From: Candidatus Iainarchaeum sp.
Lineage (GTDB): Archaea > Iainarchaeota > Iainarchaeia > Iainarchaeales > CSSED10-239
Direction: 5' to 3'
Length of the DNA: 5,218 bases
Assembly: GCA_937968065.1 (NCBI GenBank)
Contig: CALBUD010000026.1
Span: forward strand, 1 to 5,218
The position numbers and the translations under genes are program-made. Every line of letters begins with the position of its first letter. Position 1 is the stretch's first letter. Below, one piece after another: positions 1 through 5,218 of this stretch. Under the pieces are notes generated by a model. It had not been told where the DNA came from. It saw only the letters and a program-made list of their open reading frames with translations, and did not search any database.

Positions 1-296
1 TAACCGAAAAGAGAACCTAAACCTTCAGCAGCTGATTCTTCTGAAACTTCAACTTCTTCTTCTTTTTTCTCTTCAGCTTTTGTTTCTGTAGCACCTGTTG
101 CAGGTCCAGCAGCAACTGGCATTGATGCTTTTTCAATAGCTTCAGCAACATTTATATCTTTTAAAGAAGCTAAAAGACCTTTTAATTTTCCATCATCTAC
201 AGAAATTCCAGCAGAAGTTAAAACTTTTTTAACATTTTCTTCTGTTATTTCTTTTTTTGAATTGTGTAATAATAAAACTGCATATATATAATCCAT
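1..296 (-). CDS. rpl12: Archaeal ribosomal stalk protein P1 (aL12/L12e family). All 98 codons are present; only the last base of the stop codon falls outside the window.
   Basis: Manual translation from the ATG at 296..294 gives MDYIYAVLLLHNSKKEITEENVKKVLTSAGISVDDGKLKGLLASLKDINVAEAIEKASMPVAAGPATGATETKAEEKKEEEVEVSEESAAEGLGSLFG, followed by TA- at positions 2..1. The N-terminal M-[DE]-YIYA-x-LLLH motif, the Ala/Pro/Gly hinge, the acidic stretch and the GLG-x-LFG C-terminus are the hallmarks of archaeal P1. A GGTGA Shine-Dalgarno-like motif sits at 301..305, 4 nt upstream of the ATG. The gene follows uL10, as in the canonical operon. The ORF track omits it because the ORF is open at the window edge. 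Confidence 0.92.
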   Translation of the reverse strand, partial: MDYIYAVLLLHNSKKEITEENVKKVLTSAGISVDDGKLKGLLASLKDINVAEAIEKASMPVAAGPATGATETKAEEKKEEEVEVSEESAAEGLGSLFG

Positions 297-349
297 ATTT
301 TCACCTTTTTTTTATTTAATATATTTTTTTAAGAAAAAATCTCTAAAGA

Positions 350-1105
350 CTATTTAGAGACCTCCTTTTCTAAAGCTTTTGCTTTTAGTTCAGCCATTAT
401 AATCATTGGCTCAATTGTTAAACTATTTGCATAACCTACTTCAACGCCTAAATTAATAGCTTGTCTTACAGCCATAATAAAGTTATTGTAAATTTCTTCA
501 CTATCAACATCTAAAACTTCTTTAGAATAGATTGTTCCATTTTCTTTAATTAAAACAACATCTAAAATAAGTTCTACAGGTTTAATATCAAGCTTTGATA
601 AAGTATTTACAACATCTTCTGTTATAACATCTCCTTCTTTGGAAATAACAGTATCTTTTGTAACATGTATTGTTGCACCTTTAACTTGAGCTTTTATACC
701 AACCTTTTTAAGATCTGAAAGTGCAGGGCCAGGCGGTAAACCAGTATCTCCTTCAGAAATTACAATGTCTATTGGAGAAATCATTCCTGCCTTTGCTTTT
801 GATCTTGCTTTATTTTTCTTAATTGAAGAATAAATATCAAAAGCATTATTATCAGATAAAACTAATATTGGTTGATTTGGAAGTTTTTCAATAATTTCTT
901 TTTCTCCTATCTTTTCAAGAGCCATTCTTAAAATGTTTCTGTTTGTAACTTTAAAAGATATTTGTGGAGTGTTTTTTCTTAATTTATGTAAAAGAGCTGC
1001 AGGAAAATTATTTAAGTCACCAATACCAATGGTTTTATATTTTTTTAAAATATCTGTAATAATTCCAAGTTCTTTTAATCTCCATGCTTTAAGATGTTTT
1101 GCCAT
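350..1105 (-). CDS. rplP0: Ribosomal protein uL10 (archaeal P0), an unusually short form of about 251 aa
   Basis: Translation contains AKAGMISPIDIVISEGDTGLPPGPALSDLKKVGIKAQVKGATIHVTKDTVISKEGDVIT...LSKLDIKPVEL...IYSKEVLDVDSEE. This matches the conserved archaeal P0 core (GxIAPxDxxVxxGxTGxPPGP...LGIxxxIxKGKIxIxxDxxVxKxGExxS...LGIKPxxxGL). The track starts the ORF at a GTG (1117). I prefer the ATG at 1105..1103 (MAKHLKAW...), because GGAGGTG at 1115..1121 lies 9 nt upstream of it and the uL1 stop codon ends at 1107. The stop codon is TAG at 350..352. Confidence 0.9.
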   Translation of the reverse strand: MAKHLKAWRLKELGIITDILKKYKTIGIGDLNNFPAALLHKLRKNTPQISFKVTNRNILRMALEKIGEKEIIEKLPNQPILVLSDNNAFDIYSSIKKNKARSKAKAGMISPIDIVISEGDTGLPPGPALSDLKKVGIKAQVKGATIHVTKDTVISKEGDVITEDVVNTLSKLDIKPVELILDVVLIKENGTIYSKEVLDVDSEEIYNNFIMAVRQAINLGVEVGYANSLTIEPMIIMAELKAKALEKEVSK

Positions 1106-1106
1106 A

Positions 1107-1763
1107 TTATAAAGCACCTCCTACCTTAACAGGTGCACTCATTGTTGTTTTATAAATAACATCTTTTATGTTTTGTTTTCCGTTTGGAAGTTTTTCAAAA
1201 AGAGAATTATAAACAACAAGTGTGTTTTCTGCAATATCAGAAACACTTTGACTTTTCTTTCCAATTCTTATCATTAAAGAAACAGAAGATTTATTTTTTT
1301 TATTACTTATTTTTACTTTTGATAATTGAGAAGCAATTAGATTTTTAACAGCTTGTTCATTTGGTGGCATAACAACAGGCATCTTACCTCTTGGACTTAA
1401 GACTTGTCCTAAAAATTTACCCACTGTAAGCATTGCTTGACCTTCTGCTAAAATCAGATCATGTTCATTTGCAAGTTTCTTTGCATCTTTTTTTGAAATT
1501 TTTGAAATCTCATCATCAAATATTATTTTATCAACAATTCCTTTTAAAGATTCTAAGTATTGTTTGTTTTTAACAAATGCAAGACTCTTTATTTTTGTTA
1601 TAAAAGGATGAGGAAGATTTACAAAATATTCAAATCTATGATCTTTGTTTTTTATATTTAGATTTTTGAAAGTTATTATTAGATCTATTGATTCATCAAA
1701 ATTTCTTTTCTTTAGATTTGAGAAAAGACCTTGAAGAGTTGACTCTAAAGATTTTTTATCCAT
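1107..1763 (-). CDS. rpl1: Ribosomal protein uL1 (archaeal L1)
   Basis: The 218-aa product has KKRNFDESIDLII near the N-terminus, LSPRGKMP in the middle and KTTMSAPVKV near the C-terminus. These correspond to conserved archaeal L1 blocks (compare Methanocaldococcus L1: PRNFTQSFEF, LGPRGKMP, KLTMGPAVKV). The ATG at 1763 is preceded by GGAGGTG at 1774..1780. The stop codon is TAA at 1107..1109. Confidence 0.93.
   Translation of the reverse strand: MDKKSLESTLQGLFSNLKKRNFDESIDLIITFKNLNIKNKDHRFEYFVNLPHPFITKIKSLAFVKNKQYLESLKGIVDKIIFDDEISKISKKDAKKLANEHDLILAEGQAMLTVGKFLGQVLSPRGKMPVVMPPNEQAVKNLIASQLSKVKISNKKNKSSVSLMIRIGKKSQSVSDIAENTLVVYNSLFEKLPNGKQNIKDVIYKTTMSAPVKVGGAL
1115..1121 (-). promoter_or_regulatory. 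Shine-Dalgarno-like site (GGAGGTG) for uL10/P0, embedded in the 3' end of the uL1 coding sequence
   Basis: The plus strand reads cacctcc, which is GGAGGTG on the minus strand, 9 nt upstream of the ATG at 1105. The identical heptamer precedes uL1. Confidence 0.6.
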
Positions 1764-1773
1764 TTGTTTCTTA

Positions 1774-1780
1774 CACCTCC
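1774..1780 (-). promoter_or_regulatory. Shine-Dalgarno-like site (GGAGGTG) for uL1
   Basis: cacctcc on the plus strand, 10 nt upstream of the ATG at 1763. Confidence 0.6.
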
Positions 1781-1782
1781 TG

Positions 1783-1866
1783 CTATAAAGCAGTTATATC
1801 GGTTTTTTTTAAAAATAAAAAGTTAAAGTTTAACTTTTATTAATATATATTGTATATTAAGAAGTA
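1783..1866 (-). promoter_or_regulatory. Probable promoter region for the uL1-uL10-P1 operon, containing TATA-like A/T boxes. The exact box and transcription start are not resolved.
   Basis: This is part of the 145-nt non-coding gap between the surface-gene cluster and uL1. Minus-strand candidates are CTTTATAG (1783..1790), GATATAA (1794..1800) and TATATATTAATA further upstream. The sequence is so AT-rich that a TATA/BRE assignment from sequence alone is weak. Confidence 0.25.
1809..1838 (-). terminator. Terminator-like element: a perfect 10-bp A/T-rich palindrome followed by an oligo-T tract on the minus strand
   Basis: The arms aaaagttaaa (1818..1827) and tttaactttt (1829..1838) are perfect inverted repeats around g1828. 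On the minus strand the element is followed by TTATTTTT. It lies about 70 nt downstream of the stop codon of the last surface-cluster gene. The stem has only one G:C pair, so it is thermodynamically weak. Archaeal termination mainly needs the oligo-T run. Confidence 0.35.
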
Positions 1867-1908
1867 TTTTTAAATGTTTATTTTTTTACATAAAGGTTTA
1901 ATTATTTG

Positions 1909-2352
1909 TTAGTTAGGAATATAGTCTATTTTATCTATATATATATAATAGTCATCCTCTGTGAAAAGATGCATAAAAATACCAAAAGAAACATTGTAAT
2001 CAAAATTATAAAGTTCCATTATGTTTTCTCCACTTGATAGATATAAAGGATCTTTAAGAGTAAAAATACCACAAGTAACATTAATACCATAACTTGTTAT
2101 TTTTATTTCTTCTTGTGTTAAAGAAGGAGAATAGGTAAAAGTTAATTTATTGTCTTTGATATATGCATTTGAAATAAAAGTTCCTTCTTTAAACTCTAGT
2201 TCTTTATAATCATACTCATTTTGAAAATTAAGATTAGATAAAAATAGTTGGTTCCAAGAAACAATTACAAAAATAATCAAACCTAAAATAATAAAGTAAA
2301 CTATAAATAATAACATTGAAAATATTTTTGATTTTTTGTTTTTATTATTCAT
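1909..2352 (-). CDS. Hypothetical small protein with an N-terminal membrane anchor and a predicted extracytoplasmic beta-rich domain
   Basis: The ORF is open from 2367. I favour the ATG at 2352 (MNNKNKKSKIFSMLLFIVYFIILGLIIFVIVSW...), giving 147 aa. A basic N-terminus is followed by about 22 hydrophobic residues and then a Tyr/Asp/Asn-rich domain of about 110 aa. I recognise no family. The start overlaps the stop codon of the upstream gene (2345..2347) by 8 nt, or by 23 nt if the start is 2367, which suggests translational coupling. The choice of start is uncertain. Confidence 0.6.
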   Translation of the reverse strand: MNNKNKKSKIFSMLLFIVYFIILGLIIFVIVSWNQLFLSNLNFQNEYDYKELEFKEGTFISNAYIKDNKLTFTYSPSLTQEEIKITSYGINVTCGIFTLKDPLYLSSGENIMELYNFDYNVSFGIFMHLFTEDDYYIYIDKIDYIPN

Positions 2353-2956
2353 ATTTTTCCCAAACATATCTTGGAGTTTCTGTTACTCTATCAACACAGA
2401 TTAAATCAATATTTGTTTTAAAATCTTTTTCAATGTTATCTAAATTTTTAAAACCACATGCATTTCCTTCTTTTACTTCTGAGTTGTTTGGATTTAAGTT
2501 TAAAACTAAATCTCCATCAACAACCTGCCAACTAAACTTTGGTTCATTATCTTCTATATATGTACAGATTAATTGTTGATCTGGATTTTTAGGATCATCA
2601 ATAACATCTCCATCTCTTACATGTCCACATTTTTTTCCAGGTTCAAACTCTGATGGAACGTCATATTCTTTATTATCTTCTTTTACAATCCATACAAATC
2701 TAGGACAAGTATTTCCTATATATGTACAAATTAATTCTTGATTAGGGTTGTTTGGATCAGTTATTGTTTTTCCATCATCTCTGTGTCCACAACGACCATT
2801 TTCTCTTAGTTCTTCTGGGTTTTGTCCACTTTGATTTTGTAATAAAAAATTATTTGTATCTTTACCTATATTTATTTTTATAAAACCTGTTAATAAAGAG
2901 ATAATGACTAATATTATTAAAATTGAAATAATTATTATAAATATTTTATTTTTCAT
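2345..2956 (-). CDS. Hypothetical membrane-anchored protein with three tandem copies of a two-cysteine repeat domain
   Basis: The 203-aa product has the N-terminus MKNKIFIIIISILIILVIISLLTGFI (signal anchor). Three repeats follow: CGHRDDGKTITDPNNPNQELICTYIGNTCPRFVW (aa 56-89), CGHVRDGDVIDDPKNPDQQLICTYIEDNEPKFSW (aa 110-143) and CGFKNLDNIEKDFKTNIDLICVDRVTETPRYVW (aa 167-199). The ATG at 2956 is 3 nt after the stop codon of the upstream gene, and GAGG lies about 12 nt upstream. Confidence 0.8.
   Translation of the reverse strand: MKNKIFIIIISILIILVIISLLTGFIKINIGKDTNNFLLQNQSGQNPEELRENGRCGHRDDGKTITDPNNPNQELICTYIGNTCPRFVWIVKEDNKEYDVPSEFEPGKKCGHVRDGDVIDDPKNPDQQLICTYIEDNEPKFSWQVVDGDLVLNLNPNNSEVKEGNACGFKNLDNIEKDFKTNIDLICVDRVTETPRYVWEKYE
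2360..2458 (-). repeat. Cys-repeat copy 3 (aa 167-199), more diverged
   Basis: It retains CG at the start, LIC, and [FY]-V-W 12 residues after the second Cys. The Cys-Cys spacing is 20, and the DG/NP positions have degenerated. Confidence 0.6.
2528..2629 (-). repeat. Cys-repeat copy 2 (aa 110-143)
   Basis: It has the same motif and the same Cys-Cys spacing (21 residues) and Cys-Trp spacing (12 residues) as copy 1. Confidence 0.8.
2690..2791 (-). repeat. Cys-repeat copy 1 (aa 56-89 of the 203-aa protein)
   Basis: Motif C-G-x3-DG-x-x-I-x-D-P-x-NP-x3-LIC-x11-W. Similarity to copy 2 is also visible at the DNA level: tatatatgtacaaattaattcttgat at 2717 versus tatatatgtacagattaattgttgat at 2555, an offset of 162 nt (54 codons). 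Confidence 0.8.
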
Positions 2957-2959
2957 AAA

Positions 2960-3274
2960 CTATTCAGCCTCTTGCCAAATTCTTTGATTACCTGTGCCTG
3001 TAACTTTACAGATTAATGTTCTTTCTGGGTTTTGAGAGTCTTGTATAGTTTTACCTTCATCAACCCCTCTACAAAAAGAACCTAAAGTTGCATTAGAGAT
3101 AACAGGATGATTTTCATTTCCTAAAGGTTCTTGAGTATCAGGTTCTAATGATTCATCTGTTGGAAGAAAAGTATCTTCTTTAGATAAATTTGATTTTGTT
3201 GGTTTAAATATTAAAAATAAAATTAAACCTATTAATATTAAAATTAAAATTCCAAATATTATTTTTTTATTCAT
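2960..3274 (-). CDS. Hypothetical membrane-anchored protein with one copy of the same two-cysteine repeat domain. It is a paralog of the downstream 203-aa gene.
   Basis: The 104-aa product starts with MNKKIIFGILILILIGLILFLIF (signal anchor), followed by an acidic, Pro-rich linker. Then comes CRGVDEGKTIQDSQNPERTLICKVTGTGNQRIW (aa 68-100, nt 2975..3073), with a Cys-Cys spacing of 21. A partial SD (GTGA, 3281..3284) lies 6 nt upstream of the ATG at 3274. The gene starts 23 nt after the GLUG ORF stop codon. Confidence 0.78.
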   Translation of the reverse strand: MNKKIIFGILILILIGLILFLIFKPTKSNLSKEDTFLPTDESLEPDTQEPLGNENHPVISNATLGSFCRGVDEGKTIQDSQNPERTLICKVTGTGNQRIWQEAE

Positions 3275-3297
3275 ATTTTTTCACATTTTTATAAAAA

Positions 3298-4491
3298 TTA
3301 TTCTGGAAGAGGTGTTTGAACATTATTTCTTAAGTAAGGATAAGTTGTTCCCTCTGTGATATTCCAGATATCTGTAAAATTCCAATCAATAAAGGTTGAT
3401 TGTTGTTTCATTTCTATTGTTGTTTTTCCAGTTGCACCTAAAGCACTGGTTAATTGATTAGATGTTTCTGTATCCCAAAAATTGTTTGAAAAAATAGGAC
3501 CATCACTCACTGAAAACCCTTTATTAGTAGGATTTTCAGAATCTTGATAAATTACTTGACCAATTGAATATGAGTTGATTATATTTGAATTATTATTTGA
3601 ATGACTTTCAAAAGTAGTTACAAATCCACCTATATTATTACTATCTCCCGATAATCTTATAACATCACTTAAAGAATAACTATTGGTTATATTTGAAACT
3701 TTAGAAATTAATCCTCCAACATAATCAATTCCAGAAACAGTTCCTGTTGAATAACTTTCATATATAGGTGTATCAGAAGCACCGATTAATCCACCTACAT
3801 AAGCGTTACCTACAACGTTTGCATCTGCAAAACTATATTTAATGGAGATATCTTTTAAGATTCCAGTACCACCCCACCCGTTACCTACAAGACCTCCTAC
3901 CTTATTATTACCGGTTACAGAACCTATAAAATAATTATTTGAAAAATTTAAAGTTGACCATAGAGATCCAATTAAACCACCAACATTATTTTTACTACTG
4001 TTTACAACACCTGTTGCATAACAATTAGAAATCTCTGTGTATTTTGGGGTACCAACTAAAGAACCCACTGCTACATATTGTGCATTTGAATCTAAAATAG
4101 TTACATTTTCTAAACCTAAATTTGTAATTTTAGAATTTTGTGTAGTTCCAAATAAACCAACTGAAAACCCACCACCAATAGGTTCTGGATTTGTTATATT
4201 CAAATCTATAATTTTGTATCCAGCACCATCAAAAATACCTTTAAACGGAAACTCGTTACTACCTATTGGTTCAAAATTAATGCCAGACATATTAATATCT
4301 GAACCTAAAATATAACTACCGGTTAATCGATTTCTTACACAATCAAGTTTTGTGGGAGTATCAATAACATATCTATTTTGAGAATCTAAAGTAATTTCTT
4401 CTGAACAGAAAGGGGTGTAAATACCATTATAGAAGTGTTTTGCCAAGAAAAGAAAGGGTAACCATTGTTTATTGAAGAATCTTGCTTCCAA
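3298..4491 (-). CDS. GLUG-motif, beta-helix adhesin-like surface protein, C-terminal module. It is probably not an independent gene but the continuation of the upstream frame (4386..5218).
   Basis: The translation shows the typical module: YILGSDINMSG..FEPIG....FKGIFDGAGYKIIDLNI.....VGLFG....KITNLGLENVTI. Repeated turns of the Y-x-x-G-x-V-x-G-x-x-x-VGGL[IV]G type follow (NVGGLIGS, KVGGLVGN, YVGGLIGA, YVGGLISK, IGGFVTT). The module closes with FWDTETSNQ..S.G..GKTTIEMKQQSTFIDWNFTDIWNI.EG..YPYL, as in GLUG (PF07581-type) proteins. There are about 9 N-x-S/T sequons. The only start codon in this frame upstream of the module is a TTG at 4491 with no SD. There is no ATG before residue 68 and no signal peptide. 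Confidence 0.85.
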   Translation of the reverse strand: MEARFFNKQWLPFLFLAKHFYNGIYTPFCSEEITLDSQNRYVIDTPTKLDCVRNRLTGSYILGSDINMSGINFEPIGSNEFPFKGIFDGAGYKIIDLNITNPEPIGGGFSVGLFGTTQNSKITNLGLENVTILDSNAQYVAVGSLVGTPKYTEISNCYATGVVNSSKNNVGGLIGSLWSTLNFSNNYFIGSVTGNNKVGGLVGNGWGGTGILKDISIKYSFADANVVGNAYVGGLIGASDTPIYESYSTGTVSGIDYVGGLISKVSNITNSYSLSDVIRLSGDSNNIGGFVTTFESHSNNNSNIINSYSIGQVIYQDSENPTNKGFSVSDGPIFSNNFWDTETSNQLTSALGATGKTTIEMKQQSTFIDWNFTDIWNITEGTTYPYLRNNVQTPLPE

Positions 4492-5218
4492 ACACTACCA
4501 AAATCCCAGTTAGTAAAAGTATTTTCATCAGGAACAGAAGTTAATTGTAAAGTGGTTTTACCTTCAGCATTACCAAAACTGGTTAGTTGATTTGAAGAAT
4601 CTACATCCCAATAATTATTAGAATCAATATAACAAGTATCAGATCCATCTGAATCTGTAAAACCTAAAAAACCTTTATCTGTTGGGTTGGTCGCACCTTC
4701 AAAAATGACTTCTCCTTTTGAATAATTATAATTTAAAGAACCGCTATTATGATAACCTAGAAAACCACCTATGTTATTTGAATCTCCAGAAAGTCTTGTA
4801 ACAGAACCTAGAGAATAATTGTTTATAACTTCTCCTTCATAAAAATAACCAGAAAAACCACCAACATAATTATTTCCTGAAACAGAACCAGAAGAATAAT
4901 TACTATTTAGTTTACCTTTAATATCTCCTGAAAAACCACCAACATAATTGTTTCCTGAAACATCTCCTGTTGAATAATTAGAATATCGTTTTCCGCTACC
5001 TCTACCTAAAAAACCACCTACATAATCATTTCCTGAAACATCTCCTGTTGAATAATTAGAATATAGTTTTCCGCTACCTCTACCTGAAAAACCACCTACA
5101 TAATTATTTCCAGAAACAATAGAAGAAGAAGAGTTGTTTGAATAAGCCCCTCCTGATAAATATCCTGAAAAACCACCTACATAATTATTTCCAGAAACAA
5201 TAGAAGAAGAAGAGTTGT
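4386..5218 (-). CDS. GLUG-motif, beta-helix adhesin-like protein, upstream module. The 5' end is truncated by the window edge. The frame differs from 3298..4491 and overlaps it by 106 nt.
   Basis: Manual translation with codon 5216..5214 = AAC gives NSSSSIVSGNNYVGGFSGYLSGGAYSNNSSSSIVSGNNYVGGFSGRGSGKLYSNYSTGDVSGNDYVGGFLGRGSGKRYSNYSTGDVSGNNYVGGFSGDIKGKLNSNYSSGSVSGNNYVGGFSGYFYEGEVINNYSLGSVTRLSGDSNNIGGFLGYHNSGSLNYNYSKGEVIFEGATNPTDKGFLGFTDSDGSDTCYIDSNNYWDVDSSNQLTSFGNAEGKTTLQLTSVPDENTFTNWDFGSVWKQDSSINNGYPFFSWQNTSIMVFTPLSVQKKLL, ending at TAG (4388..4386). It has the same turn repeats of about 26 aa and the same closing motif (YWD..S.NQ..S.G...GKTT....TF.NWDF..VW......GYP) as the downstream module. 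The ORF track omits it because the ORF is open at the edge. Confidence 0.85.
   Translation of the reverse strand, partial: NSSSSIVSGNNYVGGFSGYLSGGAYSNNSSSSIVSGNNYVGGFSGRGSGKLYSNYSTGDVSGNDYVGGFLGRGSGKRYSNYSTGDVSGNNYVGGFSGDIKGKLNSNYSSGSVSGNNYVGGFSGYFYEGEVINNYSLGSVTRLSGDSNNIGGFLGYHNSGSLNYNYSKGEVIFEGATNPTDKGFLGFTDSDGSDTCYIDSNNYWDVDSSNQLTSFGNAEGKTTLQLTSVPDENTFTNWDFGSVWKQDSSINNGYPFFSWQNTSIMVFTPLSVQKKLL
4873..5218 (-). repeat. In-frame tandem DNA repeats encoding beta-helix turns, with periods of 78 nt and 81 nt
   Basis: 4951..5028 and 5029..5106 differ at only 3 of 78 positions. A more diverged copy lies at 4873..4950. 5083..5137 and 5164..5218 are an exact 55-nt direct repeat with an 81-nt offset, and this repeat reaches the window edge. 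Confidence 0.9.

What the first reader, a model, noticed from the sequence alone, without database searches (positions are those of the whole stretch)
1909..5218. Compact four-gene predicted cell-surface cluster inserted directly upstream of the ribosomal stalk operon
The genes are a GLUG multi-module protein, then a 104-aa 1x Cys-repeat anchor protein, then a 203-aa 3x Cys-repeat anchor protein, then a roughly 147-152-aa anchored beta-rich protein. All are co-oriented, with gaps of 23 nt, 3 nt and an 8-23-nt overlap. This implies co-transcription and translational coupling. Only after the last gene is there a 145-nt gap with a terminator-like element. All four products are predicted to be extracytoplasmic: three have N-terminal anchors, and the GLUG protein is sequon-rich with an adhesin-type fold. 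In a small AT-rich archaeon, a large beta-helix adhesin-like protein co-expressed with three small anchored proteins is a plausible attachment or host-contact module. GLUG-type proteins are usually annotated singly, and I know of no described accessory trio like this. The functional link is inference from gene arrangement only.
Basis: inference. Interest (0 to 1): 0.6.

Follow-up and report, generated by a model that had tools for sequence, protein, structure and literature searches.

The report
Archaeal GLUG surface-protein gene cassette
A tiny AT-rich DPANN archaeon carries, just upstream of its ribosomal stalk genes, a lineage-specific run of genes for a large GLUG-repeat surface protein and small membrane-anchored proteins built from an undescribed 45-residue two-cysteine module; three of the four genes recur together in related contigs, but what they do is still only inferred.

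Summary
The GLUG "gene" lies in two reading frames. The "terminator-like element" belongs to the conserved L1 upstream region. Sequons are not enriched beyond what the amino-acid composition gives.

The organism is a Forterrea/Iainarchaeum-like DPANN archaeon (L1 82% identical). All ten related genomes have enolase, then a 281-285-aa anchored protein, then L1. Only this contig has the cassette at that position.

The order GLUG, 1x-Cys protein, 3x-Cys protein recurs in two other contigs (3x protein 54-57% identical). The fourth gene (152 aa) is a complete orphan and is not part of the conserved set. In those relatives, and in a more distant one that lacks GLUG, the Cys-module gene is followed directly by an ArsP_1-type permease. 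This gives a rival functional partner.

The Cys module (C-x20-C-x11-W, about 45 aa) has only about eight carriers among 15 billion proteins. It has no Pfam, NCBIfam, PDB or fold match, and a confident three-strand model.

The five distinct GLUG loci examined elsewhere (six contigs) have no such module. Tight gene spacing is normal in these genomes.

Verdict: a real, narrow-range cell-envelope cassette with a new small domain. The adhesion role and the GLUG link are plausible but unproven. Interest is modest.

The parts
4384..5216 (-). Upstream GLUG-repeat modules. The frame is open to the contig end, so the N-terminus is missing, and it stops at 4384-4386. It contains 78-nt (26-aa) tandem repeats at 4848-5118.
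   Evidence: Translation. tblastn to the L001 GLUG protein gives 40% identity over 5198-4449. Tandem repeats. The Pfam GLUG score is only 12.6 bits, below threshold.
4380..4449 (-). Zone in which the reading frame must shift by -1 (equivalent to a 1-nt deletion) to join the two GLUG parts. It could be an assembly error, a genuine frameshift (pseudogene) or two genes.
   Evidence: Homology to L001 ends at 4449 in one frame and starts at 4380 in the other. Both frames are open over 4384-4491. An in-frame CCCTTTC heptamer lies just upstream at 4458-4452, but such heptamers are expected about 0.5 times in this span by chance.
3298..4491 (-). Last GLUG module and C-terminus. The mechanical ORF is 397 aa from a TTG start, and the homologous part is 3298-4380. 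It ends ...TYPYLRNNVQTPLPE with no C-terminal hydrophobic anchor, and it has no signal peptide of its own.
   Evidence: Pfam GLUG at 36 bits, E 6.9e-9. Peptidase_M26_N scores 19.5 bits, below its cutoff. It is 38% identical to L001 GLUG. More than 2,681 homologues were found in bacteria and archaea, the best at 42% identity.
2960..3274 (-). 104-aa bitopic protein: an N-terminal signal-anchor, a linker, and one Cys module (2963-3094).
   Evidence: It was recovered as P0004 in the profile search (E 7e-14). Positional counterparts in L001 (145 aa) and L002 (147 aa) also carry one module.
2345..2956 (-). 203-aa bitopic protein: an N-terminal signal-anchor plus three Cys modules (2675-2815, 2513-2653, 2348-2482). 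Module 1 has a third Cys.
   Evidence: Homologues P0002 (57%) and P0003 (54%), aligned. The single-module AF2 model has pLDDT 89.8 and three strands.
1909..2367 (-). Orphan ORF of 152 aa (147 aa from the ATG at 2352) with one N-terminal hydrophobic helix. It overlaps the stop of the 203-aa gene by 23 or 8 nt. It is not part of the conserved gene string.
   Evidence: It matches only itself in 5.8 billion proteins. No family hits. It is unrelated to the ArsP_1 permease or to the 282-aa protein of relatives. The chance of an open 152-codon frame at this composition is about 4e-7.
1764..1887 (-). Conserved upstream region of the L1 operon, shared with relatives that lack the cassette. It contains a TATA-like block ACATTTAAAAAyACTTCT (1877-1860), a lineage-variable palindrome plus T-run (1836-1811), an A-run, and an invariant hairpin CUGC...GCAG abutting the Shine-Dalgarno GGAGGTG (about 1802-1774).
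   Evidence: Alignments. The hairpin stem is invariant in 10 of 10 sequences. Sequence specific to the cassette ends about 20-30 nt after the stop at 1909-1911, and there is no T-run in between.
3..1763 (-). Ribosomal stalk operon: L1 (1107-1763), L10/P0 (350-1117) and L12/P1 (3-296, stop codon cut off by the contig end). It is context and not part of the cassette.
   Evidence: NCBIfam and Pfam. L12 translation. L1 is 82% identical to Ca. Iainarchaeum and 81% to Ca. Forterrea.

Best explanation
This is a lineage-specific cell-envelope gene cassette in a Forterrea/Iainarchaeum-like DPANN archaeon. It occupies the position just upstream of the independently promoted L1-L10-L12 operon, where all sampled relatives carry enolase and a 281-285-aa anchored protein.

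Its conserved core has three genes:
1. A large multi-module GLUG-repeat protein of the kind annotated as surface or adhesin-like. Its N-terminus is off the contig, it has no C-terminal anchor, and it is frameshifted in this assembly.
2. A small bitopic protein displaying one copy of a new module of about 45 residues, with two cysteines and three strands (C-x20-C-x11-W).
3. A paralogue displaying three copies of that module.

A fourth gene is an orphan, strain-specific anchored protein.

Inferred mechanism: the genes are transcribed from a promoter upstream of GLUG, which lies off the contig. The two small proteins insert N-in/C-out through their signal-anchors, so the Cys modules sit just outside the membrane. 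There they act as tethered binding modules, most likely holding or cooperating with the anchor-less GLUG protein at the cell surface.

Shown: gene content, the domain family, the recurrence of the three-gene string, the synteny break, and a conserved TATA-like block and 5' region for L1 that relatives lacking the cassette also have.

Inferred: co-transcription, topology, disulfide formation, any physical GLUG-to-Cys-module contact, and the adhesion or host-contact role.
For: - The GLUG, 1x-Cys, 3x-Cys order is found in the window, in L001 and in L002. The L002 upstream fragment is a GLUG C-terminus.
- The Cys module is a real and very narrow family. The profile search found six hits among 1.84 billion representatives, four of them genuine.
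- The module has invariant C, C and W. Its model has pLDDT 89.8.
- Each small protein has a Lys-rich start followed by about 20 hydrophobic residues.
- L1 and L10 contain no Cys, whereas every module keeps two.
- GLUG membership is shown, and homologues are widespread. The literature describes the GLUG motif as of unknown function with a possible role in adhesion (PMC9723798).
- Ten of ten relatives have different genes upstream of L1.
- The L1 upstream region is conserved up to about 1887.
Against: - Only two lineages support the GLUG-to-Cys link, and L001 and L002 share a 93%-identical segment.
- L013 has a Cys-module gene without GLUG.
- The five distinct GLUG loci examined elsewhere (six contigs), including the closest homologues at 42% identity, lack Cys modules.
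- Cys-module genes are followed by an ArsP_1 permease in L001, L002 and L013.
- Close spacing is the default in these genomes.
- The GLUG gene is frameshifted here and the fourth gene is an orphan, so the cassette may be decaying.
- There are no transcript, localisation or interaction data.
Confidence: 0.45

Rival explanations
1. The Cys-module proteins are extracytoplasmic accessory subunits of an ArsP_1/COG0701-type permease, with a role in substrate or metal(loid) handling or in thiol chemistry. Their position next to GLUG would then be incidental. In the window's lineage the permease gene has been lost from this position or moved elsewhere.
For: - A Cys-module gene is followed directly by an ArsP_1 permease in L001 (5-nt gap) and in L013 (8-nt overlap).
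- The last 19 nt of L002 are identical to the L001 permease start region.
- L013 is the most distant family member with visible context, and it has no GLUG neighbour.
- The permeases keep the vicinal-Cys motif (LPICAC/LPICSC).
- From my own knowledge, ArsP_1-family permeases elsewhere pair with a small membrane-anchored partner (DUF1980/TIGR03943).
Against: - The window has the two Cys-module genes but no permease.
- The Cys-module proteins do not match DUF1980 or any other Pfam family.
- Only two or three partly related examples exist.
- Scans of JGI metagenomes and viral contigs for more permease loci found nothing.
Confidence: 0.25
2. There is no functional unit. This is a variable region of a compact genome where unrelated, fast-evolving envelope genes lie packed side by side. 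Some of them are decaying, namely the frameshifted GLUG gene and the orphan ORF. The recurrence in L001 and L002 reflects shared ancestry or recombination, not selection for linkage.
For: - Unrelated genes in L003 sit 2-30 nt apart on one strand.
- The GLUG gene is frameshifted.
- The 152-aa gene is an orphan.
- L001 and L002 form a mosaic: 93% DNA identity over the 3x ectodomain against 69-79% upstream.
- Ca. Forterrea populations are reported to be shaped by recombination and transposons (PMC5905446).
Against: - The three-gene order persists while the 3x protein has diverged to 54-57% identity and GLUG to 38%.
- Two paralogous module genes are kept in tandem in four of five contigs.
- The invariant Cys and Trp indicate purifying selection on the modules.
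Confidence: 0.25
3. The join between the cassette and the L1 operon is an assembly chimera formed in AT-rich low-complexity DNA. In that case the cassette is not really next to the stalk operon.
For: - The contig is a short 5.2-kb metagenome contig that ends in repeats.
- It is the only one of eleven related loci with this arrangement.
- The junction is an A/T-rich stretch.
- The database lists Logan as a source for the three small proteins but not for this L1 protein.
Against: - G+C content and amino-acid usage match on both sides.
- Homology to relatives stops cleanly at the edge of the conserved L1 upstream region, next to a complete ORF.
- No direct evidence of misassembly was found.
Confidence: 0.1

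Closest known systems
GLUG-motif proteins (Pfam PF07581), including the N-terminal region of streptococcal M26 IgA1 metalloproteases and the GLUG-containing putative adhesin-like membrane proteins of host-associated methanogens (PMC9723798)
   Same: - Repeated G-L-[IV]-G-type units. The Pfam GLUG score is above threshold.
- There is weak similarity to Peptidase_M26_N.
- Each module ends with the typical ...GKTT.EM..QSTF.DWDF..IW.I..G..YPYL motif.
- Thousands of homologues exist in bacteria and archaea, including 'GLUG motif-containing protein [Candidatus Diapherotrites archaeon]'.
   Different: - No peptidase domain is visible.
- The closest homologue is only 42% identical.
- The gene is multi-module, with near-identical 78-nt tandem repeats.
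- It is frameshifted in this assembly.
- It is followed by Cys-module genes, which the five other distinct GLUG loci examined (six contigs) lack.
ArsP_1/COG0701 permeases (the organoarsenical exporter ArsP family, PMC7176098) with a small membrane-anchored partner (DUF1980/TIGR03943 'two-component permease'; the partner is recalled from my own knowledge)
   Same: In L001, L002 and L013 a small N-terminally anchored extracytoplasmic protein is encoded immediately upstream of, and tightly coupled to, an ArsP_1 permease gene.
   Different: - The Cys-module proteins have no detectable similarity to DUF1980.
- The window itself has no permease.
- The substrate and any interaction are unknown.
Small disulfide-stabilised extracellular beta-modules, such as fibronectin type I and peritrophin-type chitin-binding modules
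   Same: The module is about 45 residues long, has a three-stranded sheet with conserved Cys and an aromatic residue, occurs in tandem copies and is extracellular. These were the top two Foldseek hits.
   Different: The hits are not significant (E 0.8 and 1.8, TM 0.36-0.37). The module has two Cys, not four to six, and shows no sequence similarity. This is a resemblance in type only, not membership.

Membership tests
GLUG-motif proteins (PF07581) | Whole-protein score above Pfam's gathering threshold (20.5 bits) with repeated GLUG units | tested here: met
   The last module (3298-4491) scores 36.0 bits, E 6.9e-9, over three stretches. The upstream part scores only 12.6 bits, but it aligns at 40% identity to the GLUG protein of L001.
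M26 IgA1-specific metalloprotease (ZmpA/B/C type) | Peptidase_M26_N above threshold plus an M26 catalytic domain | tested here: not met
   Peptidase_M26_N scores 19.5 bits against a cutoff of 27.7. No catalytic-domain hit was found in the visible 642 aa. The N-terminus is off the contig, so a domain further upstream cannot be excluded.
Archaeal type IV pilins / class III signal-peptide proteins | A short charged N-terminus ending in [KR]-[GA] directly before the hydrophobic stretch (the prepilin peptidase site) | tested here: not met
   The starts read MNKK-IIFG..., MKNK-IFII... and ...KKSK-IFSM.... None has Gly or Ala at the junction. This was checked by eye only, and no FlaFind-type predictor was run.
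DUF1980/TIGR03943 partner of ArsP_1 permeases | Match to the Pfam or NCBIfam model | tested here: not met
   No such hit was found for the 104-, 203- or 152-aa proteins at E up to 1.
Immunoglobulin-like (I-set/C2) domain | A sandwich of about 90-100 aa with a B-strand Cys, a C-strand Trp and an F-strand Cys | tested here: not met
   The profile hits to eukaryotic Ig-repeat proteins (P0008, P0010) cover only 19-21 residues of the L.C....P.F.W motif. The module is 45 aa and ends 3-5 residues after the Trp. The model has three strands.
Fibronectin type I / CBM14-like disulfide modules | Significant structural match and the family's pattern of 4-6 Cys | tested here: not met
   Foldseek E 0.81 and 1.8, TM 0.36-0.37. 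The module has only two invariant Cys.
Operon (a single transcription unit of the four genes) | One transcript with no internal promoter or terminator | not testable with these tools
   The only evidence is spacing (23 nt, 3 nt, overlap) and the absence of a T-run between the genes. Spacing is not discriminating in this clade.
Archaeal ribosomal stalk operon L1-L10-L12 (context) | The three genes in order, with family-level matches | tested here: met
   L1 E 1.8e-50, L10 E 7.7e-61. L12 translation. The same order is seen in ten relatives.

The most novel reading that the evidence does not exclude
The 45-residue two-Cys module defines a new family of membrane-tethered extracellular adaptors in Forterrea-like DPANN archaea. 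These adaptors would physically couple an anchor-less GLUG adhesin, and in sister lineages an ArsP-type permease, to the cell membrane. Together they would form a dedicated host-contact or uptake device for an organism with minimal metabolism.
Probability: 0.12. Interest if true: 0.6.

Novelty: new variant of a known kind. Interest (0 to 1): 0.3.

Why it matters
DPANN archaea are thought to depend on other cells, but the surface molecules that mediate contact are almost unknown. If the conserved string of GLUG protein plus two Cys-module proteins is a working unit, it gives a small, testable candidate for an attachment apparatus in Iainarchaeota, and it adds a new extracellular domain to catalogue.

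The value is limited by a very narrow distribution (five contigs), a frameshifted main gene in this copy, and an equally plausible link to a permease. The practical yield now is a module profile (C-x20-C-x11-W) and a clear neighbourhood hypothesis to test on complete genomes.

Tried and rejected
- **Full-length AF2 model of the 203-aa protein.** Run with three sequences, it gave pLDDT 40.6 and was unusable.
- **Fold and sequence searches with the module.** Nothing significant came from PDB (best E 0.81), BFVD (best E 0.71) or PDB sequences (E 1.1).
- **Ig-domain kinship.** Suggested by hits to eukaryotic Ig-repeat proteins, it was rejected as a 20-residue motif coincidence.
- **Family libraries.** PHROGs, PADLOC and NCBIfam gave nothing for the small proteins. 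Rfam found no RNA family in the window.
- **Programmed -1 frameshifting at CCCTTTC (4458-4452).** Rejected as evidence. In-frame slippery heptamers occur 24 times in 1,710 codons here, so about 0.5 are expected in the overlap. L001 has an uninterrupted gene.
- **Sequon enrichment.** Rejected.
- **The 152-aa ORF as a remnant of the permease or of the relatives' 282-aa gene.** Rejected.
- **Collection scans for more loci.** JGI metagenome contigs (two scans) and viral contigs (two scans) found nothing.
- **Exact look-ups of the window's own proteins.** These returned no second contig, so the junction could not be cross-checked.
- **The sigma-70 promoter and intrinsic-terminator scan.** It is uninformative for an archaeon.

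Full report
**What is in the window.** The window is an entire 5,218-nt contig, the longest on record for its proteins. It has 28% G+C and every gene is on the minus strand. In the direction of transcription the order is:
- GLUG-repeat coding sequence, from the contig end at 5216 down to 3298
- a 104-aa ORF (3274-2960)
- a 203-aa ORF (2956-2345)
- a 152-aa ORF (2367-1909), or 147 aa if it starts at the ATG at 2352
- a 145-nt spacer
- L1 (1763-1107), L10/P0 (1117-350) and L12/P1 (296-3)

These are shown.

**Corrections to the observation.**
1. The GLUG region is not one open frame. The upstream modules are read in one frame that stops at 4384-4386. The last module is read in the -1 frame, which is open only from 4491.
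   - Homology to the uninterrupted GLUG protein of L001 stops at 4449 in the first frame and resumes at 4380 in the second.
   - The second part has no signal peptide of its own. The simplest reading is therefore one gene with a 1-nt deletion, either real or an assembly error.
   - An in-frame CCCTTTC heptamer lies just upstream of the switch zone, but such heptamers are common here (24 in 1,710 codons, about 0.5 expected in the overlap). It is not evidence for programmed frameshifting.
2. It lies inside about 125 nt (1887-1764) that aligns with the L1 upstream regions of relatives lacking the cassette.
   - That region has a conserved TATA-like block (ACATTTAAAAAyACTTCT, 1877-1860) and a palindrome that differs in sequence between lineages but stays at the same place.
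   - It also has an A-run and an invariant CUGC...GCAG hairpin abutting the Shine-Dalgarno GGAGGTG.
   - So the L1 operon carries a conserved 5' region of its own, with a TATA-like block as its likely promoter. The cassette has no T-run of its own between its last stop codon and that block.
3. The GLUG parts carry 18 N-x-S/T sequons in 642 residues. This is what their N/S/T-rich composition gives by chance (shuffle means 7.5 and 8.1 against 9 and 9 observed).

**Organism and location.** L1 is 79-82% identical to L1 of Ca. Iainarchaeum MAGs and of the complete Ca. Forterrea multitransposorum genome. Forterrea is a DPANN archaeon of the Diapherotrites with minimal metabolism and a predicted symbiotic lifestyle (PMC5905446).

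In all ten related loci (L1 identity 56-82%) the gene order upstream of L1 is HAD-like gene, enolase, then a 281-285-aa N-terminally anchored protein. None of these loci holds a Cys-module ORF. The window is the only exception. The cassette therefore sits at a lineage-specific synteny break that ends about 20-30 nt before the conserved L1 upstream block. A chimeric join in this AT-rich stretch cannot be excluded, because no independent contig of the same sequence could be retrieved.

**The small proteins.** Each has a Lys-rich start followed by a single stretch of about 20 hydrophobic residues (mean hydropathy 3.3-3.5) and no other hydrophobic segment. This fits an N-in/C-out signal-anchor, which is inference.

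The 104-aa protein ends in one copy, and the 203-aa protein contains three copies, of a module of about 45 residues:
- consensus G..CG...DG..I.D..NP...LIC.......P+F.W
- two invariant Cys spaced 20 residues apart, and an invariant Trp 11 residues after the second Cys
- a third Cys in the first module of the 3x protein
- by contrast, L1 and L10 of this organism contain no Cys at all

No Pfam, NCBIfam, PHROG or PADLOC family matches.

A profile of the module was searched against 1.84 billion representative proteins. It found six proteins:
- the 3x family
- the window's 104-aa protein
- a 102-aa 1x protein (P0007)
- a 177-aa 2x protein (P0009)
- two eukaryotic Ig-repeat proteins, which match only a 20-residue L.C...P.P.F.W-type motif and are spurious

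An AF2 model of one module, built from a 12-sequence alignment, is confident (pLDDT 89.8). It shows three strands, with the second Cys in strand 2 and the Trp in strand 3. It has no significant neighbour in PDB or BFVD (best E 0.8 and 0.7). A disulfide is plausible, but the geometry could not be inspected.

The 152-aa protein matches nothing but itself among 5.8 billion proteins. It is unrelated to the genes that occupy its position in relatives. The frame is too long to be open by chance (about 4e-7).

Five contigs carry Cys-module genes.

| Contig | Source | Gene order |
|---|---|---|
| window | 5,218-nt contig | GLUG, 1x, 3x, orphan, L1 operon |
| L001 | 4.1 kb, Logan | GLUG (634 aa, cut at the contig end), 1x (145 aa), 3x (207 aa), ArsP_1 permease |
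| L002 | 1.2 kb | GLUG C-terminus, 1x (147 aa), 3x (203 aa). Its last 19 nt are identical to the L001 permease start region |
| L013 | 193-kb NCBI contig | two Lys-rich non-GLUG proteins, 1x (102 aa), ArsP_1 permease overlapping by 8 nt |
| L014 | 1.2 kb | a protein with at least four modules (cut at the contig end), then a 2x protein |

Two links therefore exist:
- GLUG lies upstream in three of the four contigs where the upstream side is informative.
- The permease lies downstream in three of the four contigs where the downstream side is visible.

The window has the first link only, and L013 has the second only.

L001 and L002 are not fully independent. Their DNA is 93% identical across the 3x ectodomain and into the permease, but only 69-79% identical upstream. 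This mosaic pattern fits recombination.

From the GLUG side, the last module has more than 2,681 homologues in bacteria and archaea, the best at 42% identity. Six contigs holding five distinct GLUG genes were examined, including the two closest homologues and three from archaeal MAGs. None has a Cys-module ORF.

Unrelated genes in these genomes are routinely 2-30 nt apart on one strand. The tight spacing is therefore weak evidence for a functional unit.

**Interpretation.** The best-supported reading is a lineage-specific cell-envelope cassette. Its conserved core is GLUG plus two paralogous Cys-module signal-anchored proteins, and the fourth gene is a strain-specific addition.

[quoted passage not shown] The visible GLUG C-terminus has no membrane anchor. 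A tethering or co-receptor role for the membrane-proximal Cys modules is therefore a reasonable mechanism, but it is inference.

The main rival is that the modules serve the ArsP_1-type permease. That family includes organoarsenical exporters (PMC7176098). From my own knowledge, it often pairs with a small anchored partner (DUF1980/TIGR03943), although the Cys-module proteins do not match that partner family.

A third reading is that nothing links these genes beyond packing in a variable, partly decaying region. The frameshifted GLUG gene and the orphan ORF would fit this.

**Novelty and score.** The GLUG protein is a new member of a known kind. The Cys module is an undescribed small domain with a very narrow distribution. 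The recurring GLUG-1x-3x string is a new variant of the familiar pattern of a surface-protein gene with accessory genes. Lineage-specific hypothetical envelope proteins are expected in DPANN genomes, so a specialist would not be very surprised. Interest is 0.3.

Noticed in passing
window 1774-1802 (minus strand); the same place in L003-L012, just upstream of position 10001: An invariant motif CCGwTAwwACUGCUU-loop-GCAGGAGGUG lies directly upstream of the L1 start. It is a 4-6-bp hairpin whose 3' arm runs into the Shine-Dalgarno sequence. It is conserved in all 11 sequences, although the L1 proteins are only 56-82% identical. It could be a site for L1 autoregulation or translational control. No Rfam family matches it.
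   Followed up: partly
window 1811-1836; the equivalent positions in L003-L006: Each lineage has a different palindrome followed by a T-run at the same place, between a conserved TATA-like block and the L1 leader. The structure is kept while the sequence changes. It is unclear whether this is an insulating terminator for upstream transcription or part of the L1 5' UTR.
   Followed up: partly
L001 2533-3017 against L002 709-1193: The two contigs are 93% identical in DNA across the 3x-Cys ectodomain and into the permease start. They are only 69-79% identical, or unalignable, in the signal-anchor, the 1x gene and the GLUG end. This looks like a recombination mosaic with a breakpoint inside the 3x gene.
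   Followed up: partly
L001 3007-3993; L013 10302-11291; L002 1183-1193: An ArsP_1 (PF03773) permease gene with a vicinal-Cys motif (LPICAC/LPICSC) directly follows a Cys-module gene in three contigs. The two full-length permeases are 67% identical.
   Followed up: partly
L003 8984-9832 and its counterparts in L004-L012: A conserved 281-285-aa protein with one N-terminal transmembrane helix and no Pfam match sits immediately upstream of L1 in all ten relatives. The window's cassette sits where this gene lies in the relatives. Its function is unknown.
   Followed up: no
window 4848-5118: There are 3.5 copies of a 78-nt (26-aa) tandem repeat, 85% identical, inside the GLUG gene near the contig end. 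This probably explains why the assembly stops here, and it is a likely site of length variation.
   Followed up: no
L014 2-697: A protein with at least four divergent Cys modules (C-x18-21-C-x9-11-W), cut off by the contig end, lies directly upstream of the 2x protein P0009. The family therefore ranges from one to at least four modules and tends to occur as tandem gene pairs.
   Followed up: partly
L020 116-2809: One of the two closest GLUG homologues (P0014, 42% identical) also lies directly upstream of ribosomal protein genes (S15 and S3Ae) in another archaeal contig. This is probably coincidence.
   Followed up: no
window 2675-2815 (module 1 of the 203-aa protein); also P0002, P0003 and P0007: A subtype of the module carries a third conserved Cys (..NTCPRF.. 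/ ..DSCPKF..) and a CGH motif at the first Cys. An odd Cys outside the cell could form an intermolecular disulfide or bind metal.
   Followed up: no
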